Source: Takakia lepidozioides (Eukaryota; Plantae; Bryophyta). From it: a stretch of DNA of 64,000 nt. Numbering within the stretch: the first letter of the stretch is position 1; each line of letters starts with the position of its first letter. The position numbers and the translations under genes are program-made. Below are positions 24,621-64,000 of this stretch, piece by piece. Location: positions 72,602,001 to 72,666,000 of the forward strand of contig CM060732.1 of assembly GCA_030704615.1 (NCBI GenBank), given 5' to 3'. The notes under the pieces are model-generated. The model saw only the letters and a list, made by a program, of their open reading frames with translations. It had not been told where the DNA came from and did not search any database.

Positions 24621-24889
24621 TGAACCTCTTGGCTCGTTGCAGGATCCGATCCCTCTCCCTGGCAGTCACAGTGGCTGCCGTGTCTCCCGTGCGGAGGTAG
24701 TTCAACACAGCCGAATCCTCATGTATATCTCTGGCACCACCTGACTCATCACTAGCCTCAGGGTCCTCAAACACTCCGTCTACAGTCATCCCTGTTGTAG
24801 GTCCAACCTGACCTCCCGATGCCAAGATACACAAAAAAGAACGTGTCATCCCGGCACCATCTCCTCGTCCGTCTCACCATGCCACGAGC

Positions 24890-26262: not shown

Positions 26263-26699
26263 TTCCTGTAAGCCCTCAGGAACCGCCGTATACGTCGTCT
26301 CTCTCCTCCGGTGACAATGGGTCCAATGTCAGGCTCCCAATTGTCCTCCGTAACTGCAACCTTAAGTCCAGTGGGCTTAGAGGTAGAGGACGCGTCCAGT
26401 GGTTGCTATGTTGCAACCTCTTGAGCAGTACTCCCTACCTGCTCAGTCAATGACAAGGCCTCATCCTGCCCCATCATCTCATCCTCAAGGACTTCTCCGA
26501 GAAAATCCCCAACCTCATCCATCACAACCTTGGCTGCCAACTCCCTCTGAACCTCGAGCACCTCCCACGTGTGCCATGGATGCATGCACCCCGTGGTCCT
26601 CACATGCTCACCCCCCCACTCACTGCCTGTACCGTCTCGGTAGGCAGAGAGACCATTGAGGGAGTGTACTCCGCACTCTGCGTTGCTCACCATAGCCAA

Positions 26700-27650: not shown

Positions 27651-28049
27651 CGGATACTGCCACACAATAGGTGTGGTGTCCAATGGAGACAATGAGGTGG
27701 TCCTGTGCAATCCCCACACTCTCCTCCTCTCCTGACGGTACAAAAGCCTCCACCAGGCTTGTTGCACCCGTCGATCAGCATCCCGCTGCAAATCCTTGCT
27801 CGTGCCCCACAATGGAGTCTGAGCAACCATGGTAGGCAACTCCGCCATACCATACATGTCATCCTGCTCTCCCGGAGGTGGTACATCCTCTGAATGAGCA
27901 TTGCCCTCAAGCAACTCTCTAGGCCAACTCACTGCCGCTGTGAATGCTGCTAGTGTCGGCATCTTGCCTCGCTGGGCAACCGCAACTCCTCCTATGAACG
28001 TCACAGGGAGCTGCACACGCCGGCCTCCCCTGACTGCCATGCAGGCCTA

Positions 28050-28425
28050 TAGGAAGCTGACTCCTCCCAAAAATCCAGGGTGAAGCCCATGGGGTACAAC
28101 ACTGCCCCACCAACCAGGACATCGTATGAGACCGCGTCTGTCACAATGGCCTTGGCTCGCATCACTGAGCCATCTGTAGGGTGATCCGGCCGTAGTCTGA
28201 TAGCCAACTCACCCGTGTCATGCCCCGAGCCTGCTCCGATCCTCCAGAGACGTCTGTATCTGGAAAGGACAAGGCTCCATATCCCGCCTCCGTGAGGCCC
28301 AAGCCTGCAATAGCAGCTCTGCCCAGCATCAGTGGCTGAGCTCCCCAGTCCAACAAGACCGCAGTGGCCGGTACCTCTTGCCTGCCGGTCCACTCAAAAG
28401 AAAATGCATCCTGGTTGTCTAACAT
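28050..28425 (-). CDS. Aspartic protease of the DNMT element
   Basis: VLLDWGAQPLMLG (D-S/T-G position altered to DWG) and YDVLVGGAVL. Confidence 0.7.
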
Positions 28426-29033
28426 GACAACTCCATGTCACCATGGCGCGCTCAATGGCTGGCCTAGCTGGCAGCTCCATCAACCTGGCAGCTGCAGCTT
28501 GCCATGGCGCCGCCGTGGCAGTCTTGACCCTCAAATCCGAGGATCCCTCCGGCACTACACCTCCCACTATCTCCGCAGAAGATGAAGTAACCTCCCCACT
28601 CTCACAGAGTGTAGCTGCCAGCCTGAACACCTCAGCTGGTTTTACCCCCCGGCGTCGCAATCATGGTAGCCGAACAATGGAGCCTGGCACACAGATGTGG
28701 CCGCTCCTAGCAGCACACTAGCTGCCGTAGCCTTGGCAACACTAGGTAGTGGTGCTACCCATGTAGCTCTCCCCAATGGCATAGTAACCTCCGCCTCGGT
28801 AATTCGGGTGAACTAGGTGCCATGGATGGCGTCGACACTGTCTCCGCCAATGTGAATGACTGAGGAAGCCTAGCCTGACGGCTTGCCTCCCCACGCTGTG
28901 ATCCAACTCCACCTCTGCACCTCGTGGCTCAGGAATTCGTGCTGCTCCTCGAGTCACGGCTGCAGCAGACTCCACCTGCACTAGTGGTAGTGCTGCTCCA
29001 CACATGAATCCCATGCCTCCCATATCTCCTCTC

Positions 29034-30400
29034 TCAGGAGCAGAGAGGACCATCCGGCCTTAGAGCCGGTACCACCTGAGCTGTAGCCATGGCAGCGAGC
29101 CTCTGCTCTAGCTGCTGAAGCCGGTTGGCCATGCCTTGGTCAACACCCTGACCTCCGCGTCCTTGGCCATGTTGAGCTTGCCTGGCCTGCACCTCGTGGC
29201 TGGCCACCTCGTCCTCTCTGGGCTGCTCCACCTTGCCCCCGGCCACCATTGTTCCCTTGAACTGGCCTGGGCGCAACTCAGGATGCAAACTATAACACTG
29301 GGCCTCTCCATGCCCGTGCTTGCCACAATGCCCACACTGCAACTGTGCAGGCTGTGCATGTGCCGGCCCTTTGCCTCCCTCTGGGCAATCCTTCTTGACA
29401 TGGGGTCCTCCACATGTCCAGCACACCACATCCGCCCGTTGTTGGCCAGCAAATGAAGGGAGAGACCCCTGCATCTGAGGTCCTCTCTGCCCTTCCCTGA
29501 GCTTCACCTGAGCCCCCTTGTTGCCTTGAGCACGTTGAGGTAGTGGTTGGCACCACTACCCCGTGGTGTCTCCTTAGCAAATCCCACCATGACCACTCGT
29601 TCCTCCACCATGTTGAGCTCTATCCGCTCTGCCAGCAAAACACATTTGCTTTGCTAAGTGGGTTGGGCCGCTTGTAGGAGAGTTGCATCCCGCACCCTTC
29701 TCCCTCAGCTCCTTGTCCAATATCCCATACCAGAATTGGACTGCCTGAGCTTCCGTAACCCTTGTGTTACATTTATCAAGCGCCTCATGCGAGTGAAAGC
29801 CTCCCTCAAGCTCTCGGTCGGCTTCCGTTGGAACTTGCAAGCTCCGCAACTTCTCTGTCCTCACCCCTTGGTAGTTTCCTCTCAACTTTTTCGAAGAACT
29901 CCACAACAGGGTTGAAGGCAGGCACGGGTACTAGTGCTGGTGCGGTAGTGGCTTGGGTGGACGTCGTAGCTACTGTACCACCAGTCCCACTAGTCCCACT
30001 GCTGCTTACTGAAGCTGCCGGTGCAGCGGCAGGTGTAGCCACTGCCCTCGTGGCTCTAGTGCCCCTAGTGATGGAGACATAGTCAGGGTGACCAGTACAT
30101 CCTCCACTCCTCGATCTCAACCTCATGCCCCCGCCTGAACTCATGGTAATCATCCATAGGCGCCCCTCAAGGTGCTGAAACAGCCCCTTCCATGCCATGA
30201 AAGGCGTAAATAGTTGTGGATTGTGCATTTGCTGCAAATCACACCAACTATCAAACTCTTGGATAAAAATCATCCAACTCGATGGTGCCCACCGCCCCAG
30301 AGTACCTTCATGGCCCCTTGGTAGCTCCATACATCTCCTCCATTGTGTCCCACAACAATGGCAAAGAAAACTTGCACCCGCCGGTATGAGTCCTCCTGAT
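29034..30400 (-). CDS. Gag with two CCHC zinc knuckles, frameshifted; start not resolved
   Basis: CWTCGGPHVKKDC and CGHCGKHGHGEAQC; capsid-like FIQEFDSWC and AVQFWYGILDKELRE. Confidence 0.8.
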
Positions 30401-31214
30401 TCACAATCCGAATCAGAACCTTCCGTAGAAACACAGGAGGTGAAGGTGGCCTAAACCGCACACCTCGTCTCGTGTACCCACTAGTATCGCTAGTGCTCGA
30501 ACGGCACTTCCCCAGCAACTAGTGGCACCTCCGTGTTGACACTCAACCGGTCATGAACATGTCCCTAACCCCTCTCCACAAGGTAACCGGGTAGAGAACT
30601 TGTTGCGGCTTATGGTTTGGAATACTAAGTTCCTAACATAGCCTATACCTGTACCTCCATCCACCGCAAGCACTCCTATGGTTGGCTGGTCATCACCTCC
30701 AACCTCACCACAGGAGAAACAATGATGGTCTGGCTGGTCATCACCCCAGCCTCACCATCGACAGCATGCTCTAGGACTGGCCGGTGATCAAATCCGGACC
30801 AATCACCTATAAAACAAGCGCCCACACAAAACTAGCATGGCGCACAGTCAGCATGCAGGTATGGAGGGGATCCAAACACAAGAAATCAGAACGACAACCT
30901 CCCCCACCCAAAAACAACTCCACGGTGTTGCTCCTGCAAGAACACCCTAGCCCCAAACCCGGACTGACTCTTGCCTCCACCTACGGAAAGGTCTTGGCCT
31001 AATGAGAGGGTGGAAACTACGAGGAAGAGAAGCTAAAGCAATGCCTAACCCCAACATGCCCTCATCCCAACACTCTTCCTCTCCTCTCTTCCTTCACTTG
31101 CATGACCATGGGAATATCATGAAGATACTCCTCAAACCCCCTCCACGAGCTTCAAAATTCGGCCTTCAAGACCACATACCAATCCTTAGGCAATCCACCA
31201 TGCCTCCACGAGTC

Positions 31215-31835
31215 AGCACAGGCCGTCCACAGGTCAACACGGGCCACCACAGACCAGCACAGGCCCACACAGCCCCAAAGGCCACAGCCTATCACAGCCC
31301 CCTCACAGCCCCATAGGCCACAGGGCACAGCCTGTCACAGCCCGACACAGGTCACAGGGGTCACAGCCCCAAAGGCCACAGCCCCTCACAGCTCGTCACA
31401 GCCCCACAGGCCACAGGCACAGCCTGTCACAGCCCGCCACAGCCCATCACAGCCCATCACAGCTCGCCATAGCCCGTCACAGCCCGTCACAGCCCGTCAC
31501 AGCCCCACAGGCCACAGGGCACAGCCTGTCACAGCCCCTCACAGCCCGTCACAGCCCCACAGGCCACTGGGCACAGCCCGTCACAGCCCCACAGGCCATA
31601 GGGCACAGCCTGTCACAGCTCGCCACAGCCTGTCACAGCTTGTCACATCCCATCATAGCCCCACAGGCCACAGGGCACAGCCTGTCACAGCCCCACAGGC
31701 CACAGGGCATAGCCTGTCAAGCCCCTCACAGCCCGTCACAGCCCCACAAGCCACAGGGCACAGCCTGTCACAGCCCGCCACAGCCCATCACAGCCCATCA
31801 CAGCCTATCACAGCTCGCCACAGCCTGTCACAGCC
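31215..31835. repeat. CACAGCC-based minisatellite in the long 5' leader of the DNMT element
   Basis: Dozens of cacagcc / cacaggcc / gtcacagcc units in tandem. Confidence 0.95.
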
Positions 31836-32706
31836 CCTTTGCTTTCTTTCTTGCACCCACCAACCTGAAAATACACGCTTTAGCGGGCTGGAAGCATGCT
31901 CCACACATGCCCTACAGGGAAACCAGCCCATTCCTTCCTTTCTTGCTTGCCCTCCAAGCTTGAAGATGGAAGCTTCAATGAGCTGAATACATGCTCCACA
32001 CATGCAACCTCTTCACACAAGAGGTATCAGCCCCCTATCTTGGCTCGTTAGCTCCTTGATGCTCTCTAAGACAAGACTAAGCACTCCACAGCCCTTGCCA
32101 AGCTCCTGAAACCCTAAGGCTTACATTTCCAGCCACAAGACACTCCTCTTGTGGTGCAAGAGCTCTTCTTCCAAGCTCTGAAACCCTAGGTGCACATTCC
32201 ATGGCCTTGCCGCACCTCTTAGCTCCTGTTCCAACCCTGCTCTTGCCATGACAAGAGCCCTCTCAATGTTGAAGCTCGAGATTGAAACCCAATCTCAACA
32301 TACTCCACAAAGTGCACTGATTTTCCCCAAGCCAAATCAGCCCTTTCGCTTGGTCTTGCAATCCTTCACACAATGAAAGCTTGCATTCCCAAGTCCAGTT
32401 CTCAGCTTTGTCACCAAAGCCACTATAACCTGCTTTTGACTGGTCCTCTTCCCAATCGTGCTTGCTCATGCATGTACATAATTTGAAACCATCAAGGTGC
32501 TCTGGAATTACCTGCAACATGCTGCTTTCATCTCTGAAGCTGAAGATCAAATGCCAAGATCTACCACCTCGTAACCCACATCGCCTCCGCTTCTAACAAC
32601 CAAGAGCTCCACGGTGCTCCTTGCATAACAACCTGGTTTCTCTCATTCTCAAGCAAAAACCACAAGTGCTACAACTAACTCGTATTTGGCACTCACAGAT
32701 ACGAGT

Positions 32707-32721
32707 TCATCTTTCTCGAGT
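32707..32721 (-). promoter_or_regulatory. Candidate self-priming primer-binding site of the DNMT element
   Basis: tcatctttctcgagt (32707-32721) is the exact reverse complement of actcgagaaagatga (32859-32873) inside the adjacent terminal repeat; no tRNA-type TGG PBS is seen. Confidence 0.75.
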
Positions 32722-33617
32722 GATAAAGAAGAAGAATACAAACACGAGCTCACAAATCTGAAGCATAAACTCATGCATATATAACCTCATCACTCAAATA
32801 CAAATCAAGCCGTGGGGAATCCACACTACGGCGCCATAGCTAGGCGCGGTGAGGCTCAACTCGAGAAAGATGAGTCTCCCGCGCTTGCCGTGAAGATAAC
32901 AACTCCAGGGCCTAAATCTGCCTTGACCCTTGGATTGACACTTGGGCCAATCCCAAATGTCAATATGTAAAAGCTAGCTATTTCCTAGCTAGTTTCACAC
33001 TAGTGGTAAAATAACTTGACATCAACTTCGGTCCGAGATGTACAATATTTTTTGGGATTTGCAAATTTCTATAGAATCTTCATCAATGATTACTCCAAAA
33101 TTGTTGCACCATTGACACGATTCACATGGAATGACAAATTTGTATGGGACGAGAAGACTGATCAGACATTTGAAAGGCTGAAGCAGACATTTACAACGGC
33201 TCCAATTCTGATACATGGAGACCCATCTAAACCATTCTTTTTGGAAGCAGATGCATCGGACTTTACACTTGGCGCTATACTTTCTCAATACGGTACGGAT
33301 AGCCGACTTCACCTTGTTGGTTTTCGTTCTCGCAAATTTTCCGCTGTAGAGATCGATTATGAAATCCATGACAAAGAACTTCTAGCGATCATCGATGCTT
33401 TTGAGGAGTGGCGTCATCTATTGGAGGGAGTTAAACATCAGGTCACTGTCTACACCGATCACAAAAACCTCAAATATTTTATGAGTGCTCATGTTTTGAA
33501 TTGACGTCAAGCAAGATGAGGTATGTCATTAGCAAGGTTTGATTTTGTTATAACCTATCGCCCCGGACATCTTCAAGGGAAACCCGATGCTCTTTCTTGA
33601 CGATCATATCTTGCGCA

Positions 33618-34294
33618 TGTCAAAGACGAGGACATGACTGAACACAAACAAGATATCAGACTTAGAGGTACAAAACTAGACACGAAATCAAGGTCGGCGT
33701 GGCCGAATGCATGATGGATAAAGAAGAATCAAGATGATTTTTATAACAATGAACAAGAGTACAAGATACTGGAATTCGACTTGAATACTAGAATGCTGGA
33801 AACTGGACTGGTGTACCAGAACCTGGAAACTGGACTAGAGTACTGGAAGCTGAACTGGGTACTGGGACTGGAAACAAAAGTAGCTTGAACTTGTGTTGGC
33901 GAGACTGAAGAGTGTCTAGTCTCGCCTCCTATATATACTGGATACTAGGAAGTTTCCTAAGAAGTTTTCCCAACCAAGGGAAGTCTCTTGAGAAGTTTCC
34001 CCTACCAAGGGAAGTCTCCTGAAAAACTTCTTTAACCGAAGGAAGTCTCCTGAGAAGCTTCCTCGACCAAGGGAAGTCTCTCGAGAAGCTTCCTCTACCA
34101 TGAACCTTCCTGAGTAGTTTCCTGAGTTACTCTCAGTAATTTGGTAGTTACTTCACGTAATTTAGTAACTCATGATAACTTATGGTAATTTATGGTAGAT
34201 CATGATAAACTACGGTAAATTGTGGTAACTTTTGGTAACTTGGTAACTTTTGGTATTTACTCCTGATAAATTCCTCTGGGCTATGTCTGTGACA
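33618..34294 (-). mobile_element. Solo LTR of the Tcn1-like family, inserted antisense in the host pol
   Basis: tgtcaaagac...gtgaca; reverse-complement homology to 42191-42818; flanks gcgca/gcgcc split host codons YLAPK. Confidence 0.9.
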
Positions 34295-35664
34295 GCGCCG
34301 AAAGAAGGGGTGACAGTTTTTGACCAACTAAATCGACCTTGAGACAACCCACATGTTACAAACGACTTCGAATTTAAAGACGATTTGCGTTATTTCAAGG
34401 GGCTTCTCTATGTACCTCCGGGACGTACACAACTCCGGATTCTCCAAACACGTCATGATTTTTCGGCTGGAGGACATTTTGGCTTCAATAAAACAATGGA
34501 ATTGGTATCTTGGGACTATTGGTGGCCGCTAATGTGGAAACTGGTGAAAGAATTTATAAAATTTTTCGACATGTGTGCTAGAGCGAAGGGACCAGGACAT
34601 CGACCTTACGGCCTTCTTCAACCATTACCCATTCCCAAGTGTCCATGGTTGTCCCTATCAATGGACTTTATTACAGACCTTCCAGTTTCGAACACCCATG
34701 ATTCAATCTTTGTTATCGTAGATCGTTTCACGAAGATGACACATTTTATTCCATGTAACAAGACGGTTACAGGTGAAGAGACGACAAAACTCTTTCTCAA
34801 CAATATTTACCGCATTCATGGACTCCCGGATGACATCGTATCTAATCCAGGACCACAATTCATATCAAATTTCAGGAGAGGATTATTTCAAAACACCAAG
34901 ATCAATATCTCAACAACCGATCATCCGCAGACTGATGGTCAAACCGAGCGCGTAAATCAGATGTTGGAGCAATATCTTCGCTGTACAATAAATTATCGAC
35001 ATGATAATTGGACGGACCTTTTGTTATTTGATGAGTTTGCCTACAACTGTCAAGGACGAGAACATGACTGAACACAAACAAGAGACCAGACTAGAGGTAC
35101 AAGACTAGACAAGAAGTCAAGGTCAGCGTGGCCGAATGCATGGTGGGTAAACATGAATCAAGATGATCTTTATAACAATGGACGAGAGTACAAGATACTG
35201 GAACTCGACTTGAATACCGGAAACTGCACTGGAATACCAGATACTGGAAACTGAACTAGAGTACTGGGACTGGGAACAAGAGTAGCTTGAACTTGTGTTG
35301 GCGAGACTGAAGAGTGTCCAGTCTCGCCTCCTATATATACTGGCTACTAAGAAGCTTACCCTATGGAGGTTTTTTGATGAAGAAGTTTCCTTAAGCAAAT
35401 GAGGTATTTTGATGGAGAAGTTTCCTCCAAATGAAGCTTCCTGAGCACTTTCCCAAGTTACTCTTGATAATTTGGTAAACTCCCGGCAACTTGGTAAGTA
35501 ATGATAAATCATGGTAGATCATGATAAATCACGGTAAATTATGGTAACTTCTGGTAAATGGTAACTTTTGGTATTTACTCCTGATAAGTTCATCTGGACT
35601 ATGTCCGTGACATCACCCCCTCCTCTAGCGCCGAGTTCCTTGAGGAGCGGTATCTTGGACTTGC

Positions 35665-36066
35665 TTAGAGTTGGAGAAAATCCAAAATCCGGCGAATGGT
35701 ACTTGCCAAGTATTCGGCTGTTCGTTCTTGACTCAAATGATTTATAGGTCCCTACAACCATCGATAGTGTCCAACACCTTGAACTTAGGACCACGCAGTG
35801 ATTTGAGCATTCTGATTTTCGAAGCTGCCTTCAAACATAATTTCGTTGCCCTCTGGGTCCAAAGCCTCAACTTCCAACAAAATTATCAGACTTCGAGTAG
35901 GCTCCACTTGCCGTCGTACGGGGTCCAGACGATGAAGTACGCGTCGCATTGGTGGCCCATCGTCTCGAGAGCATCGGCGTGATGTTGTAAGTCGTGAGAG
36001 TCGGAACGGCTGATCTGGTAGTAAGGTAAGCGACAACTCCAATGTATCTGGTTCTTGTGACTCCAT
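35665..36066 (-). pseudogene. Extra ~133-aa ORF between pol and PPT of the chromovirus (also at 41741-42134, +)
   Basis: MESQEPDTLELSL...EGNEIMFEGSFENQNAQITAWS(Q)VQGVGHYRWL(Q)GPINHLSQE...TIRRILDFLQL*; the two copies have stops at different Gln codons; TATATA about 40 nt upstream. Confidence 0.55.
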
Positions 36067-39000
36067 GCTGCCAATACAAGATGCAAGAGTGCTGGAAGTG
36101 TAGCTATATATACTGATGTGTGGTGCTCCTCCCTCCTTAGCATGTATCAGGTACATTGAATGTGGAGTCTTCACCTTGAAGCTAACCTGGCTGACATCAT
36201 CGTTGTGACGTCTTATTGACGTGTAGCTCGGAGCTTAGCTGGATATCGTCGATGAAATTCTTGGACTTTGTCAGATGCATTGGCGAGGTTGGATGAAGGT
36301 TTCCACGGTCGTTCTCTGATGTCGTAGCCTTTCCAATGTACGAAATACTCAAGACGTTTATACTTTGATTCGAGAGTCTAGGACTTCGTCGACTTCATAC
36401 TCAATTTCCTGATTGACTTCGATTGGTGGAGGTGGTACGAAGACTCTTCCTGGAATATTCGATGGATGATACAACTCCAATAATGAAATATGAAAGACTG
36501 GATGGATGCGCATACTTCGTGGGAGTTCAAGCCGAAAACTGACCAGATTTATTTGTCGAATAATTTTGAATGGTCCCAGATGTTGATAATCTAATTTCCT
36601 TGATGGTCGCGAGGTTTGTATGTCCCGTCGAAGAAGCCACACACGCTCCGACCTTGAACTGGGGTTGGAGTTGACGCCGTTGATTTGCATACTCCTTGTA
36701 TTATTTTTGAGTTTCTGCGAGGTGGAATGTAAGTTCCTTGTGAATCGTAGCAAGATGAGTAGCAAGGTTTTCTGCAGCAGAACTTCCAACAGTCTTCATG
36801 GGGAAATGGTTTGCTCGAGGATGATGACCATAATTGGAGAAAAATGGAGTTTGTTTGGTCGAAGAATGTATAGTGTTGTTGTAGGCAAACTCAGCCAATG
36901 ACAGAAGGTCCGTCCAATTATCTTGGTGATAATTTATCGTACAGCGAAGATACTGCTCCAAAATCTGGTTTACACGTTCGGTTTGACCATCAGTCTGTGG
37001 ATGATTAGCTGTAGAGAGGTTGATCTTAGTATCCAATATGTGAAATAATCCCCTCCAGAAATTTGATATGAACTGTGGTCCTCGATCAGATATGATGTCC
37101 TTCGGGAGTCCATGAATGCGGTAGATATTATTGAGGAAAAGTCTTGCAGTTTCCTCGCCGGTAACCGTCTTATTACATGGAATGAAATGTGTCATCTTCG
37201 TAAAACGATCTACAATAACAAGGATTTAATCGGTGGTCTTGGAAATTGGAAGGTCCGTAATAAAGTCCATAGACACGGACGACCATGGACCCTTGGGAAT
37301 GGGTAATGGTTGAAGAAGGCCGTAAGGTCGATGTCGTGGCCCCTTCGCTCTAACACATGTGTCGCAAGATTTTATAAATTCTTTCACGAATTTCTACATC
37401 TGTGGCCACCAATAGTCCCTGGATATCAATTCCATTGTTTTGTTGAAGCCGAAATGTCCTGCAGCCGGAAGATTATGACATGTTTGAAGAATTCGTAGTC
37501 GTGTAGGTCCTGGAGGTACATAGAGAAGTCTCTTGAAATAAAATAAGCCATCTTTGAATTCGAAGTCGTTTGTAACATGTGGGTTGTCTCGAGGTTGATT
37601 TAGTTGACTTCATAGTGTCGTAGCAAATTGGTTGCTCTTCAGTGCTTCCTGAATCTCCTGTATGATCTCTGCATCGTCATAGGTGGATATGGATAACCTA
37701 TTCAATTGGAGATTTGCTGGTTTCAAGATGATAGATTTCTGTTGGTCGAAAGCTGTCTCATTTTTTTTCGGCGCAAGATACGATCGTCGAAAAAGAGCAT
37801 CGGGTTGATGTCCGGGGCGATAGGTAATAACAAAATCAAACCTTGCTAGTGACATACCCCATCTGACTTGCCGTCGATTCAAAACACGAACACTCATAAA
37901 ATATTCGAGGTTTTTGTGATCGGTGTAGATAGTGACCTGATGTTTAGCTCCCTCCAGTAGATGACGCCACTCCTCAAAAACATCGATGATCGCGAGAAGT
38001 TCTTTGTCATGGATTTCATAATTGATCTCTGCAGCGGAAAATTTGCAAGAACGAAAATCAACAGGGTGAAGTCGGCCATCCGTACCGTATTGAGAGAGTA
38101 TAGCGCCAAGTGCAAAGTCCGATGCATCTGCTTCCAAAAAGAATGGTTTGGATGGGTCTGCATGTACCAGTATTGGAGTCGTTGTAAATGTCTGCTTCAG
38201 CCTTTCAAATGTCTGGTCAGCCTTCTCGTCCCATATAAATTTGTCCTTTCATGTGAGTCTGTCAATGGTGCAACAATTTTGGATTAGTCATTGATGAAGA
38301 TTCTATAGAAATTTGCAAAGCCCAGAAAACATTGTATATCTCGGACCGAAGTTGGTTTAATCCACTTGATGATGGTTTGTATTTTCTTCTGATCCATAAA
38401 GATGCCTTTGTCGAGAAGCCCAGAAATCAGCGGCAACGGATAACGATTCTTGATTGTGACTTTGTTGAGACCACGATAGTCGACACACATGCGTAATGAT
38501 CCGTCCTTCTTTTTCACAAAGAAGATAGGCGGCCCTGCAGGTGATTTTGAATGTCGGATGAAGTGCTTCGACAAATTTTCATCAATGTATTCACATAATG
38601 CAGCTAACTCCGTCTGGGATAAGTTATAGATTGGGCCGAATGGTGGTTGGGCTCCTTCTTGTAACTCAATTGCACAGTCATAAGATCGATGTTCTGGCAA
38701 TATGTCTGCATTTTTCTTCTCGAAGACATCTTTGAAATCTTGATATTGAGCGGGTAATGTTGAAGTACATTTGTCTGTTATGGTCTTGATCGGAGTCGCA
38801 TAGAGTGCAAATGCCGCATCCTTTTTGGTAGCTGTCATGAAAGCTCTAGCTCTAAGGAACATGGGTTGAATACCTTTGATATTTCTACATTTTTGTCTTG
38901 AAGAATTTTTTCGCGATCGCCGGTCGATGTCGGGATTGTGAAGTACAAACCAGGGAAGTCCAAGGATCACAGGATTCGTTGGAGATTGGATGACGTTGAA

Positions 39001-40380
39001 AACAATATGTGATGCTTGATCTTTAAGTTTCACTTCAAGTGGTCGAGTTTCATGGTCCACATTTCCTGATGCTAACGGTCGTCCATCGATGATTTCAACG
39101 GGGGCCGAAAGTTTCTTCTTTACGAGCGTTAAATTGTGTTGCTTCGCAAAGTTTTTGTCCATAAAACAAGCTGAAGCCCCTGAGTCCAAAAGTGTTTCTA
39201 CAAAGATATCTCGATTTTACACTGTGATTTTTACCGGAACTGTGAAGCAAGGTGCGGGGTCTGGAGGTAGAAAGAGACATTTTTTCGGTAAGGAATTTGT
39301 GGTGTCCAGCCGCATGGTCCCTACTGTGACTGGACATCTTTGTTTTCCGACCTCCTCATATCGAACACTTGAATTGTGCCCCGAGCTTTGAATCTTCTCT
39401 TGTTGGGGCAGTTTAATGCTATGTGATCTTCTTCTCCGCAATAGAGGCATAATCCATTCGAGCGTCGTCTTTGTTTTTCTTGTAGCGTCAATGGCTTGAA
39501 TCAGACAACATCAATCTGCATAGGATCTCTACCGGATGTCTGATGGATCGTTGTGTTTGGTGCCGTAGTAGTAGTGACATGATGCGTCGTCGACCATCCA
39601 GATCGCTTCTCTTGACGTCTTTCGATCAAACGATTATCGCATGCAATGACTTAGGTGATAAATTCACTCAGTGTGCTCACGTTTGGCATTGTCAGCAATA
39701 AATCTTTTACATCATCTTTTAGCCCACATCGAAACTGATTAATGAGACTCTTCTCATTCCAGTCGAGGTCGCACGCAAGTTGTCGAAATTCGATAGCATA
39801 AACGGAATCAGGATGTGCTCATTGTCGAAGATTTCGCATCTTTGTCTCTGCAACTCTCTCTCTATCATTCTCTCCAAACGTTGCAGTGAACTCGGACATG
39901 AATGCTTCAAAATTATATAATAAATGATTTTTTTCTTCTAATAGCGGTGCAAATCAAGATAGGGCAGTGCCTGATATAAGGGTGCCCACGAATCCCACTT
40001 GAATACCTTCATCGGGGTAGCGTTCTGGATGTAGTCATATGAACAGTCGTACTTGTTGAACAAAATCGCGAAATTTTGATCTCGTCCCATCAAATTTCTC
40101 GGGCATACTGATCTTTGGTTCTCTCATAATCTGTTGAAGATGAACCGTTGCAGTAGGAGCTGTTGCAGTAGGGATTCGTATGGTTGAAAATCCATTGTTC
40201 GACTCCTTTAACTTTTGAAATTTGTTGTTGCAAATTGTGGAGAGCGTTGCCAAGATCTTGAGACTGATCAACTTGCAATTGGGCGGTAGAGGTATGAAGT
40301 TCTTGCATCTGGAGCTGAAGACTCTGCAATGTGGCGACCATTTCCGCAAATGTGCCTTCCATCTTAACTGAACAAACTTT

Positions 40381-53208: not shown

Positions 53209-54419
53209 GTCTTCCCAACAATTGCTCGCAGTAATGAATTTAAAAAAAACGTCAGATGATAACACAAGAATCAAATGAAACATGAAGAGACAGAACAGCT
53301 GCAGATCCAACGAGAAGGAATTTAAGATTAATTGTTGTGGGGAAATCCATGGCAAGCGCAAGGCAAGAAGCCAGCCTGCCACACACAAAACTCGGTAGTT
53401 AGTTAGACGAATCTTGGACTGCACGACGACGAACACACCAACGATCGTTTCTCTTCAGCGTCCACTTCACTGCGTCCGAGTTGCCGACGTCAAAAATCAT
53501 TCTTCGTCAGCCTCACCCGGCCCCCCATTCTTATCGTAGTATAGCACGATGCTAGGTCCACATCCACGATTCGTTATCCTTCCCCCTTTCCATAAAATAG
53601 AACCCACTTCAGTTTTCTGCGGAGTGATGGCCACATGCCTGAAGACCGGGCGGCTCAAATTTGGGCTGTCAACTCTGGTACACTTAGAAATATTAACAAG
53701 GGGATCCTTAAAAGTACTCCACCAGAAAAGCTGTCCCTGTCAGTGGGCCATCGGCTATCCTAAGTACCCATATTTGTCAGTGGGCCACTGGCCAGTCTAC
53801 CTGCCTCACTCGATATTCTTCATAGCGCTATTGTCCGTGCAAGACAAAATCCTCAGCCAAAAGTAGAAGTAGCGTCAGCTCAGAGCCCTTTGAAGTCCTC
53901 TTTCATGAGTCATGACGGTTTGGAATCTTCACGGGGACCAACAGACCAGTAGTTGTCTCTTTTCACCACGAGGTTCTGATCTGAAAACTGGTGAAGAGCC
54001 GTCACGTCACTTCTCCCCAACCATGAAGTCACTGGCTTGCAAGACTCTCTACAGTCAGAAAGAATGGAGCTTTACAGAAGTAGATGAAGCTGAAGATCCA
54101 TCAGTAGACCTTCACACCCTTAATAGAAAATGATGTCGTTGAGAGTCAATTGGCCTCCCGTTCCTTTTCTGCGTATTCCATCCTTTTTGTAGAAGTCCCT
54201 CTGCCGCTGTGGAGGTGGACCCACCTCGTCGATATGGCCTGCAGGTGGAGCGCGGACATCGCCTTTGTCTGTAGCAAGTGGTAAGACGTGAGAACAGGAG
54301 GGAGGATTTCAGGTTTCCGGGGGTGGAACGTGACGCTTGTGCCTTTCTGGCTACAGAGGAGGGCAGTCCTTGAGGATCGTGGCTCAGATGTGGGCAGCTG
54401 CCTCACATGTAAAGTAGTC

Positions 54420-56330
54420 ATGGATGTATTGGGTAAGTTCAGCACTAATGCCGACTTGCAGCAATCTTTGAAGGACGCGGAGCGTGGAGCAAGGAATTCA
54501 GGTGAAGATGCTGAGGTAACACAGGTCTTGGACTGCGCAAAGAAAGAGATAGACTCGTTGTCTCTTAGGCATGTGTGGCAGGATGCCGCAGACCCATCTT
54601 CATCGTCAGGTGAACGGCTTTTACATGCAAAGGGCCAGAGAAAGATGACACAAGTACTGAAGCTACGTTATCCAGTTGAGGACCGAGTCGTGGGTCACGC
54701 GCTCGTGAAGGCTGCTGAAGGTGGCCATTGCAATGTTGTGCGCACGCTACGGAAAGGGCAGACAGAACAAGGTTTGAGTGTGTTGGCCTCTAGATTCTTT
54801 GCTTTTGCTCTTCTTAAAGCTGTAGAAGCAGGGGAGATCGACGTTGTCCTGGAACTCTTTAGGTCAACCAATTCGGCTGGCCTAGCTCTCGTGGGTCACG
54901 AGCTCTCCCAGGCCAAGGATGACGGGTATCCATATGTGAAGGTAAATCTTACAAAGAAGTGGTCTAAGAGTGTGGCAAACGTGAAGTCCCTCTTGCCCCC
55001 AGCGACCCAGACAATGCATTACGGGGTCTTGGAGCTGTGGGGAGCAAGGAGCGAACAAGAGTCCGTGCACGAGGCCACCAGGACTTGCTTCCACATCTAC
55101 TGCCTCTGGCGCTTGCTCGTGGTAGCTGCTGGAAGTGGCCATAACTCAGTCTTCCGAGAGCTTCTCCACCGCCGGGATGAGCACCATGCTCTGGCCCGGG
55201 AAAGGAGGAAGGGATGTATGGACCTAGGCAATGACCGGGTAGAGGACCTCGTGAGGACCACGACGAAAATAGATGATGACTTTTGTGAGCTAGTCCTGAA
55301 AATCACAGCAAAACTGGGGAGGGACTCGATGTTGTTTGCGATATGGCAAAGCACTCAAGGAGCCATATTCTTCAGGGACTTAAAAGGAGCAGAGGCTGAC
55401 TCACAATGGCAGTGTGAGGCTCGATCCCACTTTGGGCTGTGGGAGCTGCACATGGACGTTCCTACGCTGGTGATGGATATGGAAGGTTCCTATAAAGATG
55501 AGAAAGAGAAAGATTCAAGAATACTGCGACGGTATAGGTATATCCGGCCTGTACTGCCACAGTTGACCAAGTTGAACGTCCAGTTCAAGCTTTCCATTGA
55601 GATCACGCCAAATTACATTGAGCTTGTTGTTGGCATCAACCATGTCAGAGTCATTGTCGAGAATTCTTGTTGGGAGGAGAAGCAAACTGGCCATTTTCCT
55701 TCCTGTGTCAATCTCCGTCTCACCCCCCTCACAGCCAGCGAAACATCAGTATCCATGACAGGTTCATCTAACAACACATCCTACAAAGTGGGGGTGGGAG
55801 AGAATCTCAGAGTGGGGGTCCGTGCAAACTTCAAGTCTGGAGGTGGTGCAGCAGGCCTCAGTGTGTCAGCGGGCAGATCAAGCGCATCAAAGGTGGAAGG
55901 CAAGCCGTGGACGATGGAGCAGCTTCCTGTGAGTGGGGGACGGGGAGGCAGCTTCATCTGGACGCTGTCGAATTTGCAGGGTACCCCATTCGATCGCCTC
56001 AACCCTATGCTCATGGAAGCCAAAAAGTCAATCTGGCAGTTTGGACGGCGCATTCCTGTCAACCCTTTGCTCCTGTTGCCCTTTGGGAGCAATGGAGGTG
56101 TCAACTTCACTGGCAATGATTTTGATGACACTCTGGCATGGCGGTTTTCCAAGGATCTTGAGAACACAATCCTGGTGTTCAACATACAAGGCGAGGTGCA
56201 CACCACGTACATCACTCAGAACCATTTCTGGGAGACGAGAGTGATTCCTTTTGATACAAAGCTGGAGCAGAAGCTGGAGCCTTGCGGAGAACCTGGTGGA
56301 GGAGACAAGAAAAAGAAGAAAAAGAAATAG
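54420..56330 (+). CDS. Uncharacterised intronless protein (636 aa from first ATG): degenerate ankyrin-like repeats, beta-rich C-terminal domain, poly-Lys tail
   Basis: 2-kb open frame; ALVKAAEGGHCNVVRTL, ALLKAVEAGEIDVVLELF, LLVVAAGSGHNSVFRELL; Ser/Gly-rich alternating segment; ends DKKKKKKK*. The true start may lie upstream. Confidence 0.75.
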   Translation: MDVLGKFSTNADLQQSLKDAERGARNSGEDAEVTQVLDCAKKEIDSLSLRHVWQDAADPSSSSGERLLHAKGQRKMTQVLKLRYPVEDRVVGHALVKAAEGGHCNVVRTLRKGQTEQGLSVLASRFFAFALLKAVEAGEIDVVLELFRSTNSAGLALVGHELSQAKDDGYPYVKVNLTKKWSKSVANVKSLLPPATQTMHYGVLELWGARSEQESVHEATRTCFHIYCLWRLLVVAAGSGHNSVFRELLHRRDEHHALARERRKGCMDLGNDRVEDLVRTTTKIDDDFCELVLKITAKLGRDSMLFAIWQSTQGAIFFRDLKGAEADSQWQCEARSHFGLWELHMDVPTLVMDMEGSYKDEKEKDSRILRRYRYIRPVLPQLTKLNVQFKLSIEITPNYIELVVGINHVRVIVENSCWEEKQTGHFPSCVNLRLTPLTASETSVSMTGSSNNTSYKVGVGENLRVGVRANFKSGGGAAGLSVSAGRSSASKVEGKPWTMEQLPVSGGRGGSFIWTLSNLQGTPFDRLNPMLMEAKKSIWQFGRRIPVNPLLLLPFGSNGGVNFTGNDFDDTLAWRFSKDLENTILVFNIQGEVHTTYITQNHFWETRVIPFDTKLEQKLEPCGEPGGGDKKKKKKK

Positions 56331-58283: not shown

Positions 58284-59795
58284 CCGTGCCCCCTCTACAT
58301 ACTTGAATTTAGCAGGCAGATACCAAGATGGTTATTTTGTGGGCCAGTGCATCGATGGCACCGAGGGCCTATGTCGCCAATTTGAATGCTCGCTTGTTCA
58401 GATCACAATCTGAGTTCAATTCTTCTTTTCGCCTGTTTCCATAAAGGAGACGGAACGTCGCTACGGTCTGATGTTTGGTTCTCGCTTCATACCTCTTTGC
58501 ATAACAACCAAACTTACTACCTACCATGGGTCTCTCAAGCTGTGCACCCAGAGTAAATAGAATACATGTAGGTGGCTACTACGACCTTCATCACTTAGCC
58601 CTTCATGTAGAAGAGCTCATTATTGTCGTTCTTGAGATTATCTTTATAAGTCAAAGTTGCAAATAAGGTCTGTAATCAGAATGCCAAAACTTCTGCCGAG
58701 TCCAAAGAAGATCATAGATAGCCAGAGCTTAAGGGGTTGAAGACTGCTCAAGTACATTGAAATTCATAACACTACCCATCACACTGCCCACGATTGTACA
58801 TCATGGGCAGTGTTGATCAAGGTTGCCCTCTGTGCTGCCTCAATAGGGGGGAAAACTGCAAGTTTGTAGAATGATGGAATGGCACCAAACCCTCTGTGTG
58901 TTTGTCATTAAAGTTGCCCGTCACACATTAAGCCTCTTGATTGAGGACCTCCAGGGTGTCCTTTTGAAATGCCTAGGGGTTGCTAACTAGAAATGACACC
59001 AATGACATTAGAAGAAAGGGAGTGAAGGGTGAGAAGCTTAACTCTCAAATCACCCCTTTCTGTAATGGAGTGAAAACCCTAGAAGTTCACTTGATGTCAG
59101 TTCGCTACTAAAAGACCTCCTGTCTGAATAGTGTCTACAGCCGATTACTTTCTTTTTCAACTCACTTCTACGTATGTGAGACTTGTATGTTGATTGCATG
59201 ATTAACCACCCTGTTGGTTACATAAACAAAGATTGCCCAGTCATTCAGTCAAAATCCAGCCATTGGCACGGCCTATGCTCCGCCAATCTGCCCCCTTGCA
59301 CATCTGCACACACAAATTGTATGAAAAAAACGCTTTATATATTAACAAGAACTGCAGTGGAGGCACCCTAGATCAAACTTCGTAGACCACCTCAATCATA
59401 AGCCAAGCCTCTGGCAGCCCCAGACAGAAACACACCTGGTGCAGACAGACTAGGAGTTAAGCAAAGCGCTATCCCACAAAAAGACAATCTCAACAGGAGA
59501 CAGGAAACAAGACCCTAAAAAATCATGAATGGCCTGCAGAGTAGCAGACTCCACAGGGTTTGAAAGTGAATGCAGACAACCAGCCAGCAACACAGTGTCG
59601 AAGGCCAATGCACCAGCATGGATAAAAGGCAGCCAGGAACACAAGCTGCATGGTTTTGAAACGGCAAAACAGCAGAGGAGCCTTCCAGTAGCCTCCTATT
59701 GTTCAAGGAGGAGGGTTGGACCACCTCGCCATTTTATGATGACATCCAAGCACGCCATGGAAAAACCCAACGTGGCTCTAACATTTGTAAGGCAG

Positions 59796-62700
59796 TCACA
59801 GAGAGCACATAATCTGATTCACCTCTGAGAGAAGCATATACGTAGCATATGAGTGCTGAAGAAGTACATTGGCTGGAAATATGTCATCCACCGTTCTTTC
59901 ATTCATGGCATCCCGGGGCCATCTTACCATCCTTGGATCCAAGAGATAAAGTTGAAGTGGTACATCTGAGCTCAAAGAATCTGCAGTCAAATACCGAAAC
60001 ATAAATCTGCGCAAGACACATTGGAAAGCTTCTGCAGATATATTTGTCTGTATTCGTGTCTCATCCCCCCAAGAAGTCACCACTTTGACTGCGCTCTGCA
60101 ACTCCTCGACCAGACTAGGAGACAACGGAGCCCTGCATGCATCAAGTCAGATCATAAGGGCTAATTATAACAGTGTCTGCTTAGCCCTGTACTTGGGATT
60201 CTCCATCTATAATGGAAGCTGCAAGGGTGCCTTTGACATTTCCAAGAAGCTCATGGATCTAGAGAAAGCAGGGCACAAGAAAGGACACAAAATGAGCTCT
60301 ATATCATCCAAGGGAAGCTCAAAGAAAGTCCCTCATAAGGAGCTCCAAAACTGCAGTTCGACATCGGGAGATTCATGTAGGCAATAGAAGGTATGGTAGA
60401 AGAAAGAAGTGGGGCCCTCAAGAAGCAACTCAAAATCAATTTCAACATCCAGAAATTCTCAAAGGTGGAGAACCTCCTGTAGGTATACTTCTAGGCATCT
60501 CTGGTCCTTGTACTGAAGGAAATGAATGAAATGGTGCTTTATAACGTCCGCGAAGGACCTCAGCAAGAAAGACATCTATCAGAAGCCCGAAGGGCCTCTG
60601 GGACCAAAAGAGATTAAGTTTCAGAAACTGAAGCTGCAGAGAAGAAGAAATGAACTTTTTGATGTCCTTGAAAAGCTCAAAGAGACATGGGCTGCGACCC
60701 CATAACAAGCATAGTATAAGAAGTGTAGCGCTCCAAAGTTGTTAATGTGCAGATGGGAGCACATCTGAAATGATTTTACCTGTAGCGAGAACTGACCAAG
60801 TTTCCCACAGAGGCGCTGGCACAGTCCTCCAGCCCTTCATAGAGGCTGACAGCATGCTGCAGCTGTATGCTATCAAAGACTGACATTTCTGTGACTAGGC
60901 AAGCCTTCCCTCCCAGCCAGCGATTGCAGTAGTTGCTTAACAGTTCAAGGGGGTCGCCGCCAGTTCGACGAAGAAATCCAAGACACACATCCAGCAATGC
61001 TAGAAACTGTCCAGCTCGAGCATCTTTCATATCAATTTCTCTGTGTATGCTTCGCATGGTCTCTGAGCATAAAGGCTCTTGGTGAATGGCTTCCGCCACG
61101 TCAGAGAGAATAGTTGCATGCCGATGAAAAGCTTCATGCTCATATGCAAACTCAATCCAGCCCTGACAATGCAAATGAAATGAAAGGGTACTTTATAATG
61201 TCCGCGGAAAGCTCAAAGAGCTTATGGGACAAAATGGAAAACACAAAGAAATGAAATGAAATGAAATGGTACTTTATGACGTCCGCGTTATCTTTACCCA
61301 ACAGCATCCATTTCACCCATGTAAATATCCGTAGACTTTGCTGGCAGCAGACCACGCACAACTTTTAATACATAATGGAAGAATCTGACATCTTCTAAGC
61401 AGTTTTGAAAGAAATCTCTGGTTGTAAAGTCCAGTGCTGGTTCCACTGATCTGGCAAAATACCATCTTTGCCTGTTCTCCACCAGAAGTATGCCGGAAGA
61501 TATATCTTCTGATTTTTGACAGATGTCAAGACCATTCTATACAGTTTCTGTTTGATCACCATTTCAACATTCAAGAGAGTTTCCAGGATGGGCACTACCA
61601 AACAGCTTGCAAGGGAAAAGCAAAATGAGTGTGACTATTGAAGAAGAATGAACCTCACCGCATCCAAGTGAGATTTTCCCAAGAGGAGATGATCTGAAAG
61701 CTGCTGCTGGATAACAACATCATCATAGAGGGCTTGGAGGCCATGTCCATAGCGGAGGTCTGCCATGGCTGCCCTCTGTACCATATCCTCAACCCAACCC
61801 TGGTTGTATTGAATCACCTCTTCATCCTGAAAATTGGCAAAGCGGTACTTAATGTATATAATGGCCAAAAAATCCGCTAATTTGCTAACAAACCGAAAAG
61901 CTGGGTACATAGACATTAGGAGTTGCAACCACATTGGCAGATAGAAAATAGCTGTGGATTGAGATAAAAAACATAAGTTATGTTGCAAATCACTGACTCC
62001 ACAATTCAAACGAGATTAATTAAGGCATTCCAAACTCTGTTGAACTGAGTGCTTCGGAAGCAATCCTGTTCCTATACTTCTCGAAATCTTCCACATGTCT
62101 GGAAGGAAATGAAATGGCATTCTATAGCGTCCACATAAAGCTCAAAGAGCTTATGGGACAAGAGGAAGAAATGAAATGAAATGGTGCTTTATAACGTCCA
62201 CGGAAAGCTCATAGAGCTTATGGGACAAAATGGAAGAAAACATGAGAGAGGAAACAAAACCAGAGCCAAAAATAAAGCTATTGTTCGACTGATTGTCTAA
62301 GGGTGAAGGCCTTGTGCAGGTGAGCTGCCAAGCATTTCTGATCCTCATAGTGGACGACTTCAGTGAGACCGGGCACCCCGGAATAGAAAATTGAATATCC
62401 CATGGATCTCATAGTAGAAAGGCTATGCAAACTGGACATAGGCGGTCCTCGGTTGCAGGTTTTCCCATCTGCCAGTCTCTATCCGTAGGTTGTGGGACAT
62501 CTCAGGAAGGCCTTGGAATAGAGAATAGTATCTCCCCCAGATCTCATAGTAGGGATGGAATGAAAGAAATTTTCTTCAGTTTCAATCTTCCTTCTGTCAT
62601 TTTTTGAAGCAGGGCACAAGCCATCAGCACACTCCAGGTTGTCCCAGCTACCAATCTCTATCCGCAGACTGTGTGAGACCTTCCTAATGCTTAGGAGGGA

Positions 62701-64000
62701 TGGGGCTATAGTTGCAATTGGGCTGTAAGATTCTATGATCATGGAGGACAATAGGACAGCAGCTTTGTTTTAAGTTTCCAGGTCCGCCTAACATGAAGCT
62801 CCTGCATAAGGAGTTTGTTGCGATTGTGTTGGATTCCAAGCCTTCGCATACTTTGTAGCAGTAGGGAAGCACAGACAGTCCTTTTCCCTCACAGTAGTTG
62901 GAGACCCGAGAATAACATGTGGTCTTGAAACCAGCGTTCTCGAGTCTCATAGAGGTTGCCAGGGCTCGGACTGCAATTCAGACAACATCAACGACGCCTG
63001 AAGACATGTGCAGCTGTCCGAGCTCCTCTAAGACAACCTAGCTAGAGTATATGCATTTCTGATTGAGTACCAATCAATGTGCATCTAGTATGTACACATC
63101 TGCTAAACCACACCACTGCTGGTTTGTAAACTTAACGGTTACCCTTGATTAGAGACTGGGTCTCAGCATAACAGGGCTCAGGAAGGCTTCAATTGATGTC
63201 TCTGCAAGTTTCGGCTGCCTATCCAATAGTCATTATGGATATATAACTTGTTCAACGCACTACTCTATTTCCACCCATAGGAAATAGTAAGAGAAGATCG
63301 TTATAAAGAGAAGATCTTTCCAGACAACACAGTCTTTGCCATTTGGGTCAAGGCCCAGCAACCAGCAGAAGTGAGCAAATGAGTTGCCGCTGGAAAGTGC
63401 CACCCACCTTCAAGAGTTGGACGGGAACTGATTGTGGGGGTCTAATTTGTCTACTGGCCTGGAGCTGCCAAGGGGACCTGAAGGCCTGGATCTGCCGTTT
63501 GTCAATTGCTGCAACTGCATCTTCCAGAAATACATTTTGTTGGTTACGAAGGTTCTCCAGGATAGCTGTGATGTACATGCCTTGGTCACGGGGTTCCACC
63601 AGGCACATAGCCAGTGGACAGTTCCCATTCATAGATGGAATGGGCTGCTTGAACTCGTGGCACTCGTACCCTCTCACATTGCCCCGCAATAGGTTCCATG
63701 ACTCTGCAAAGTCGTCGAAGAGTGTCTGCAGCTCCCTTCAGGCATCCACCACTCAACAGCAAATAAATAAGTAGCTGCATGTATCATGGCATTTGAACTT
63801 TCTCTACCCAATCTCACAACAAAGCTCCACTTCTATCGAGAGACATTCTTGGTGCTCGGCGACAATAGAATCTTGAGACCAAATTACCTTTCAGCATCCT
63901 TATCTCCTTCCCTCCTGAGGGCATTGGGGCGGTTCAGGGTGGGTTCCCACAACCTACGGATAGAGACTGGCAGATGGGAAAACCTGCAACGGGAGGACCG
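59796..64000 (-). CDS. 3' exons of an RNF213/mysterin-like giant protein (exons about 63735-63408, 61827-61659, 61163-60780, 60132-59796); gene continues beyond the window
   Basis: FAESWNLLR...CLVEPRDQGMYITAILENLRNQQNVFL; IQY...YGHGLQALYDDVVIQQQLSDHLLLGKSHL; LDVCLGFLRRTGGDPLELLSNY...IQLQHAVSLYEGL; LRRFMFRYL...PLQLYL...FPANVLLQH. These parallel the RNF213 C-terminal domain as I recall it (LGFLSTAGGDP, FLQGKPRL, FPEEILL). Confidence 0.8.
60518..62237. repeat. Dispersed intronic repeat (about five copies) gaaatgaaatgg...acgtcc...aagctcaaagagcttatgggac
   Basis: Copies near 60520, 61175, 61255, 62105 and 62170, several directly at intron 3' ends of the minus-strand gene. Confidence 0.7.
62443..64000. 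repeat. ~55-bp inverted repeat pair (62443-62497 / 63945-64000)
   Basis: cggtcctcggttgcaggttttcccatctgccagtctctatccgtaggttgtggga versus its near-exact reverse complement at the window end. Confidence 0.85.

What the first reader, a model, noticed from the sequence alone, without database searches (positions are those of the whole stretch)
59796..64000. RNF213/mysterin-like gene in a plant-type genome
Seen: four spliced exons whose motifs follow, in order, the C-terminal domain of RNF213. Knowledge: RNF213 is an animal giant AAA+ ATPase/E3 ligase that ubiquitylates bacterial LPS in cell-autonomous immunity; I know of no angiosperm orthologue. Inference: either an ancient eukaryotic immune factor retained in a seed-free plant or a horizontally acquired gene. 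It would be a candidate non-NLR intracellular defence system.
Basis: partly seen in the sequence, partly recalled or inferred. Interest (0 to 1): 0.75.

Follow-up and report, generated by a model that had tools for sequence, protein, structure and literature searches.

The report
RNF213-like giant ligase in seed-free plants
This is the spliced tail end of a plant gene related to the human antibacterial ubiquitin ligase RNF213; its moss and fern relatives are full-length giants with the ATP motor and the catalytic zinc finger, so this plant likely keeps a working copy, which would tag invading microbes for destruction if it acts as in animals (untested).

Summary
Confirmed, with corrections. 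The minus strand holds the last five exons (not four) of an RNF213-family gene. The 417-aa piece matches only RNF213 among solved structures (profile E 5e-32; fold search) and covers the end of the E3 module plus the C-terminal domain. The upstream part is off-window and no genome is held. A 56%-identical relative with the same intron sites runs through the AAA core and RZ finger. Ceratodon, Physcomitrium, Ceratopteris and Adiantum have 4,000-4,840-aa forms, and Mesotaenium a partial one. All lack the RING. Trees group the window with mosses and follow plant phylogeny; nesting inside mycorrhizal fungi is rejected, a sister position to all fungi is not. No named seed plant appeared among 120 listed hits. 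The scan found RNF213 relatives in fungi and protists before; none it listed was a plant. I found no paper on plant copies. Immune function is untested.

The parts
63408..63735 (-). Exon E1, distal E3 module (about mouse RNF213 4765-4860); phase-2 acceptor
   Evidence: Open frame. The acceptor sits at the same codon and phase as in the relative L002/L001. Not covered by RNA contigs.
61659..61826 (-). Exon E2, end of the E3 module
   Evidence: RNA contig of run X5 covers it and splices it to E3; 52-61% identical to loci L002-L013 where matched
60780..61162 (-). Exon E3, first lobe of the RNF213 C-terminal domain
   Evidence: RNF213 best PDB hit; 62-66% identical to 13 of 13 loci; spliced to E2 (X5) and to E4 (X6 with 68 letters on the short side; X5 with only 26)
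59823..60132 (-). Exon E4, second lobe of the CTD, including the loop that docks E2 in mouse
   Evidence: RNA contigs in X5 and X6; profile alignment to mouse 5072-5141
59241..59303 (-).
   Evidence: GT-AG joint 59823-59303 in X5 and X6; matching tail in L001, L002, L005, L006 and P0225
58916..59240 (-). 3' untranslated region (at least to 58916)
   Evidence: X5 and X6 contigs continue from E5
63736..64000 (-). Intron upstream of E1, running off the window; holds an inverted high-copy repeat fragment
   Evidence: 46-nt perfect inverted match to 62452-62497; summed contig depth about 196,000 against about 55
61827..63407 (-). Intron E1-E2 with LINE-like 3' ends
   Evidence: GT-AG ends; repeats; same position as an intron of L002; not bridged by RNA

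Best explanation
The window holds the spliced 3' end of an RNF213-family gene of a seed-free land plant (likely a bryophyte), which is likely a full-length, RING-less giant of about 4,500 residues and is predicted to work as an ATP-gated ubiquitin ligase. Shown: five exons encoding the end of the E3 module and the C-terminal domain, RNA splicing of three introns, and homology to RNF213 only. Shown in relatives: an AAA core with both Walker A motifs, an RZ finger with the catalytic Cys and His at RNF213 spacing, and no RING. Inferred mechanism: ATP binding in the AAA ring licenses the ligase; a ubiquitin-loaded E2 docks at or near the CTD encoded here and passes ubiquitin to the RZ cysteine, which passes it to a substrate. 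Inferred origin: inherited since at least the common ancestor of Zygnematophyceae and land plants, and apparently lost in seed plants. Inferred role, least certain (about 0.4): ubiquitin-coating of intracellular microbes or damaged membranes for autophagy.
For: Homology. Splicing; DNA contigs run through three of these intron regions unspliced. Constraint: identity to L001 by codon position 0.67/0.77/0.47 over 412 codons. Full length in relatives: L001 is a 3,590-aa 5'-open frame, 56.5% identical over 418 aligned residues, and the spliced copy of the gene in L002, whose introns fall at all four window intron sites and at the E1 acceptor. Named forms of 4,011-4,842 aa in Ceratodon, Physcomitrium, Ceratopteris and Adiantum; Ceratopteris P0161 hits RNF213 at E 5e-128. 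RZ above the Pfam cut-off in 7 of 7 and 4 of 4 plant-clade proteins scanned, with catalytic Cys and His in 11 of 11. 23 of the 150 listed profile hits are 3,400-5,650 aa with the match in their last 350 or so residues. Trees: window with mosses 98/91, land plants 98/99; Mesotaenium sister to land plants 99. In mouse the RING is dispensable while RZ and CTD are needed (bioRxiv 2021.05.10.443411, passages).
Against: This gene's own AAA core and RZ finger were not seen (no genome). The mouse E2-docking residues are poorly kept: by profile alignment the Trp is absent in 11 of 11 streptophyte-clade rows, the Phe is Phe in 7 and Leu in 4 (Leu in the window), and the Asp, Tyr and Glu have no identical match in the window; this loop is hard to align. 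The zinc-binding His of the RZ finger is replaced in all 11 plant-clade proteins; a Cys two places after the first ligand could substitute, which is inferred. No CBM20 was detected in plant-clade proteins. The fold match is significant but loose (TM 0.37-0.41, rmsd about 11 A) and used L001, not the window's own sequence. Two fern models (P0164, P0166) match only the first 160-180 residues of the model, so CTD-less forms or annotations exist. Nothing here tests immunity.
Confidence: 0.72

Rival explanations
1. Same protein and chemistry, but a housekeeping role such as organelle, lipid-droplet or membrane quality control, not defence against microbes.
For: No immune evidence in any call. The CBM20 region under positive selection in simian RNF213 (PMC11549300, passages) was not detected in plant-clade proteins. 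A 2026 preprint reports RNF213 acting on damaged mitochondria (search listing).
Against: Several diverged copies in ferns (3 models in Ceratopteris, 2 in each Adiantum species), a decayed second copy in this organism's DNA run and apparent loss in seed plants resemble conflict-gene turnover (inference).
Confidence: 0.4
2. In this genome the gene is truncated or decaying: only the tail survives or is transcribed, with no AAA core or RZ finger upstream.
For: The upstream part is unseen. The introns are full of high-copy repeats. A second fragment with a stop exists in the DNA run.
Against: Unbroken 417-aa frame, canonical splice sites at conserved positions, third-position-biased divergence, splicing in two studies. 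The window's branch is not long (0.31 versus a median of 0.78). E1 starts with a phase-2 acceptor matching an internal exon of L002.
Confidence: 0.08
3. The streptophyte lineage got the gene by an ancient horizontal transfer from a fungal or protist lineage, not by descent from the early eukaryote ancestor.
For: A plants-plus-all-fungi clade is not rejected (p-AU 0.32). Deep branches are unresolved. No named chlorophyte or red alga appeared among the hits I could name.
Against: Nesting within fungi is rejected (p-AU 1e-6; 0.047 on the CTD). Fungi, animals and streptophytes are each one side of a branch in 100% of 200 bootstrap trees. Two unnamed rows join the streptophytes at 92/99 in the CTD tree; a longer member of one row's cluster has a composition I associate with chlorophytes (recalled), though it did not join them.
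Confidence: 0.13

Closest known systems
Mammalian RNF213 / mysterin (PDB 6TAX, 7OIK, 8S24, 9G08, 9JW1)
   Same: End of the E3 module and CTD are collinear over mouse 4709-5141. Relatives share the dynein-like core with two Walker A sites and the RZ finger with catalytic Cys and His.
   Different: No RING; RZ zinc site C-x-C or H-x-C instead of C-xxx-H; E2-docking residues mostly not identical; no CBM20 detected; about 18% identity in the tail. The two sampled invertebrate proteins named RNF213 sit on a separate long branch.
Uncharacterised moss, fern and algal proteins: Physcomitrium patens LOC112295119 (XP_024402110.1), Ceratodon M758_7G045200, Ceratopteris KP509_37G042500, Adiantum GOP47_0011499, Mesotaenium ME000219S03301
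   Same: Same clade; 34-50% identical over the window's model; RZ in all, AAA in the four full-length ones; RING-less.
   Different: Labelled only 'hypothetical', 'uncharacterized' or 'RZ-type domain-containing'. The window gene branches outside the Ceratodon-Physcomitrium pair and has a 20-aa tail exon shared with L001 and P0225.
RING-less RNF213-like proteins of Glomeromycota and Endogone, and of cnidarians, lancelets and echinoderms
   Same: Same CTD signature; AAA core 37-48% identical to L001. Most of the fungal forms scanned carry an RZ finger.
   Different: Separate clades. The listed invertebrate forms show no PF20173 hit in the precomputed domains.

Membership tests
RNF213 family (broad, eukaryotic) | C-terminal domain and distal E3 module homologous to RNF213 | tested here: met
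   (E 5e-32, 9 of 9 hits RNF213); fold search 8 of 207 matches at E<=0.001, all RNF213 (model of the relative L001)
RNF213 family (broad, eukaryotic) | Dynein-like AAA core with active AAA3 and AAA4, in this gene | not testable with these tools
   Off-window, no genome. Met in relatives: two Walker A motifs in L001, both mosses, P0225 and 4 of 5 fern models checked; P0161 vs RNF213 E 5e-128.
RNF213 family (broad, eukaryotic) | RZ finger with catalytic Cys and His, in this gene | not testable with these tools
   Off-window. Met in 11 of 11 plant-clade proteins (one is an isoform of another) and in 8 of 13 loci, the 8 with enough upstream DNA.
Vertebrate-type RNF213 | CHCC zinc site in the RZ finger (mouse C4451, H4455, C4471, C4474) | tested here: not met
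   In relatives the His position holds Phe, Tyr or Leu; a Cys sits two places after the first ligand, and the two named mosses have His as first ligand (ligands)
Vertebrate-type RNF213 | RING finger in the E3 module | tested here: not met
   No RING family in Pfam scans of 7 and 4 proteins. The RING cysteines of Lineus P0170 have no counterpart in 6 aligned plant-clade rows. The regex is insensitive: it also missed Mytilus P0171. Tested in relatives only.
Vertebrate-type RNF213 | E2-docking residues of the CTD (mouse F5092, W5097, D5101, Y5106, E5108) | tested here: inconclusive
   Window has Leu and Val at the first two and no identical match at the others. My count puts the Phe at 5093 in chain 7oik. 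The loop aligns poorly and no complex was modelled.
Vertebrate-type RNF213 | N-terminal CBM20 domain | tested here: inconclusive
   A 9-sequence profile built from non-plant relatives found nothing significant in 11 plant-clade proteins; Pfam none. Small profile; no fold test.
Vertebrate-type RNF213 | Orthology to vertebrate RNF213 | tested here: inconclusive
   No vertebrate sequence was in the trees. Lineus and Mytilus proteins named RNF213 are 32-33% identical to L001 in the AAA core versus 45-48% for RING-less invertebrate forms and lie on a long separate branch.
Vertebrate-type RNF213 | Ubiquitylates LPS and coats intracellular pathogens | not testable with these tools
   Needs biochemistry and cell biology. 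Animal data from PMC11549300 and PMC12440826 (passages).

The most novel reading that the evidence does not exclude
Seed-free plants and their algal sisters keep an RNF213-type cell-autonomous defence: a RING-less AAA+/RZ ligase that coats invading or symbiotic microbes and ubiquitylates non-protein surface molecules. This non-NLR immune arm expanded in ferns, was lost in seed plants, and can be knocked out in Physcomitrium.
Probability: 0.3. Interest if true: 0.85.

Novelty: new variant of a known kind. Interest (0 to 1): 0.6.

Why it matters
RNF213 is described as a vertebrate protein (PMC7311170, passage). A full-length, RING-less form in mosses and ferns, with a partial one in a zygnematophyte alga, moves the machine back to at least the streptophyte ancestor of land plants. 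It gives a natural RING-less version with which to ask what the RING adds. One gene was found in Physcomitrium patens, a knockout-friendly model (recalled), so two questions become directly testable: whether plants have ubiquitin-coat immunity against microbes, and what RNF213 did before animals. The limits: the proteins already sit in databases as uncharacterised RZ-domain proteins, relatives are widespread in fungi and protists, and no function is shown here.

Tried and rejected
No genome is held, so the upstream gene could not be read. E1 alone in PDB: 0 hits. Pfam on the four exons: nothing significant. ESM Atlas on the L001 tail: no usable hit, which shows nothing. No run is on record as RNA; X5 and X6 are guessed RNA, and I rely on their GT-AG joints. 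E1 and the E1-E2 intron have no RNA cover, which is not evidence either way. One X5 contig runs 15 nt into the E3-E4 intron (unspliced RNA or DNA). A stop-containing stretch in the E1-E2 intron (about 63050-62780) was considered as an extra exon and rejected because E1 and E2 are already collinear with relatives. Neighbouring genes have no match in the 13 loci, so there is no synteny evidence. The RING-UBL-TerD partner noted by earlier agents would lie at the 5' end and could not be checked. Literature: 10 searches. RNF213 with Physcomitrella or Physcomitrium gave 0 papers; with 'land plant' 1 fish phylogeny; the listings of the others showed nothing on plant RNF213. Searches did not force the term RNF213 and say little. 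[quoted passage not shown] The four eLife supplements held as text had no species hits, even for Danio, so its alignment file was probably not seen. bioRxiv supplements, most subscription papers and Otten et al. 2021 (recalled, not read) were not seen and may list non-animal homologues.
Full report
Observation. Translating 59700-64000 on the minus strand shows four reading-frame blocks separated by GT-AG introns. Laying public contigs on the region refined the model. Two runs guessed to be RNA, from two studies, give joints with GT-AG ends that skip 59304-59822 (both runs, 166 and 255 letters on the short side), 60133-60779 (X6 with 68 letters; X5 with only 26, under the tool's 31-letter bar) and 61163-61658 (X5 only). 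DNA contigs run through these regions unspliced. The five exons give 417 residues without an internal stop. The E1-E2 intron is not bridged by RNA.

Identity. Exon 3 alone returns RNF213 as 9 of 10 PDB hits (best E 0.0018); exon 1 alone returns nothing. A profile with five relatives gives E 1.4e-8. A 43-sequence profile gives E 5e-32 over mouse residues 4709-5141, with all 9 hits RNF213. An AlphaFold model of the same region from the 56%-identical relative L001 (pLDDT 88.6) matches only RNF213 at E<=0.001 (8 of 207 matches), though loosely (TM about 0.4). By the domain limits in PMC7311170 (passages) and bioRxiv 2021.05.10.443411 (passages), E1-E2 are the end of the E3 module and E3-E4 the C-terminal domain, which docks the E2 in mouse.

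Host. No genome is held. A decayed eL24 copy at 47043-46774 scores 146-152 bits against six chains that I recall as plant ribosomes, and 78 or less against others. An exon of a neighbouring WD40 gene has POC1 as its best named natural hit, a weak hint at a centriole-bearing plant. The gene tree places the window with mosses but outside the Ceratodon-Physcomitrium pair, so a bryophyte is likely; the group is not determined.

Is the gene full length? This can only be judged from relatives. A profile search of 1.84 billion representatives gave 201 hits; 23 of the 150 listed are 3,400-5,650 aa with the match in their last 350 or so residues. A metagenome scan gave 13 loci at 62-65% identity to exon 3. 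L001 is one 3,590-aa frame, open at its 5' end, with two Walker A motifs, an RZ finger and a tail matching exon 5. It is the spliced copy of the gene in L002 (13 blocks at 99-100% identity), whose introns fall at all four window intron sites and at the E1 acceptor, in the same phase. Window versus L001 identity by codon position is 0.67, 0.77, 0.47, as expected of a conserved coding sequence. Named relatives are Ceratodon (4,842 aa), Physcomitrium (4,704), Ceratopteris (4,661, 4,419, 1,088), Adiantum (4,672, 4,011, 3,279, 2,203) and Mesotaenium (1,868, 464). Against this reading: two fern models lack the CTD match, and a short second contig in the DNA run carries a stop in exon 3, so decayed copies exist.

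Anatomy of the plant form. In 11 of 11 plant-clade proteins (one an isoform) the RZ finger keeps the catalytic Cys, the CxxC pair and the His nine residues later, at RNF213 and ZNFX1 spacing (ligands). The zinc-binding His is replaced in all of them; a Cys two places after the first ligand may stand in (inference). No RING was found by Pfam or by alignment to the Lineus RING. No CBM20 was found with a small profile. The mouse E2-contact residues are mostly not identical: the Trp is kept in 0 of 11 streptophyte-clade rows and the Phe in 7 of 11, with Leu in the window. Since mouse RNF213 works without its RING but needs RZ and CTD, a RING-less plant protein can plausibly use the same cysteine relay, but the docking detail has diverged.

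Origin. A fast tree used the 182 proteins, of 324 with a hit, that cover at least 330 model residues, plus the window model. I picked 36 rows for a careful tree, dropping most near-duplicate cnidarian-like and fungal rows and, in that tree, the proteins named RNF213. Result: window, L001 and mosses 98/91; land plants 98/99; Mesotaenium and one unnamed row next, 82/83; fungi, animals and streptophytes each one side of a branch in all 200 bootstrap trees. AAA-core and concatenated quick trees (32 and 29 rows, LG+G4) agree. AU tests: plants inside fungi rejected at 0.047 on the CTD and 1e-6 on 1,529 columns; plants sister to all fungi not rejected, 0.32. Only one Endogone sequence anchors the long test, the root is not inferred, and no vertebrate was included. 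The Lineus and Mytilus proteins named RNF213 are more distant from the plant form (32-33% in the AAA core) than RING-less invertebrate forms (45-48%), so this is an RNF213-family member, not a proven orthologue of the vertebrate gene. In the search with L001 (574 hits, best 120 listed, 1,974-6,283 aa only) the top 9 rows were 8 named mosses or ferns and one unnamed; no named seed plant appeared. That suggests loss in seed plants but does not prove it; liverworts, Sphagnum and lycophytes were not named either.

How it likely works. ATP binding in the AAA ring gates the ligase; E2~ubiquitin docks at or near the CTD encoded here; ubiquitin moves to the RZ cysteine and on to a substrate. These steps are carried over from mouse and are untested in plants. 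The substrate is unknown. In animals the protein coats Salmonella, Listeria and Toxoplasma vacuoles (PMC11549300, passages) and its RZ finger ubiquitylates LPS (PMC12440826, passages). Copy turnover in ferns fits a defence role, but organelle quality control fits as well; I put defence at about 0.4.

Novelty. Ten literature searches found no paper on plant RNF213 (limits under Tried and rejected). The scan's index holds 48 RNF213 findings in at least 18 genomes; the 8 shown were fungi and protists, and none was a plant; a look-up by this sequence found none. The plant proteins are in databases but unnamed. Verdict: a real, RING-less variant of a known machine in an unexpected and experimentally tractable lineage, function untested; interest 0.6.

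Noticed in passing
window 60515-60550, 61170-61290, 62100-62510, 63936-64000: High-copy LINE-like 3' ends (my recalled reading of the short reading-frame end and the CATTT-repeat tail) fill the introns; summed contig depth reaches 1e5 against about 55. One tail forms the pyrimidine tract just before the exon 3 acceptor.
   Followed up: partly
window 61003-61052 (also 61346-61384, 58896-58973): DNA run X3 has extra contigs at single-copy depth with several differences; the one over exon 3 includes a stop. Likely a decayed second copy elsewhere in the genome.
   Followed up: partly
window 54285-56330 (+): Intronless frame of 681 codons stop to stop, covered by X5 and X6 contigs, tail-to-tail with the RNF213-like gene. 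Only weak ankyrin-like leads (Pfam E 0.25; Atlas 0.76); the C-terminal half is unexplained.
   Followed up: partly
window about 53450-48370 (-): Multi-exon WD40 gene; POC1 is the best named natural PDB hit for one exon, which would fit a plant with flagellated sperm.
   Followed up: partly
window 47043-46556 (-): Frameshifted, intronless eL24 (60S L24) copy of plant type, probably a retrocopy.
   Followed up: partly
proteins P0223, P0224 versus L001, ferns, Mesotaenium: The first RZ zinc ligand is His in the two named mosses and Cys in the others, so the zinc site has been rewired within plants.
   Followed up: partly
proteins P0230, P0242, P0244, P0273 and many unnamed 4,000-aa rows: Cnidarians, lancelets, molluscs and echinoderms carry an expanded RNF213-like class with no PF20173 hit in the precomputed domains, separate from the proteins named RNF213.
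   Followed up: no
window 21400-39200: Nested LTR-retrotransposon remains (reverse transcriptase, RNase H and integrase-like frames, read by eye), one with a DNA-methyltransferase-like frame at 26829-28046.
   Followed up: no
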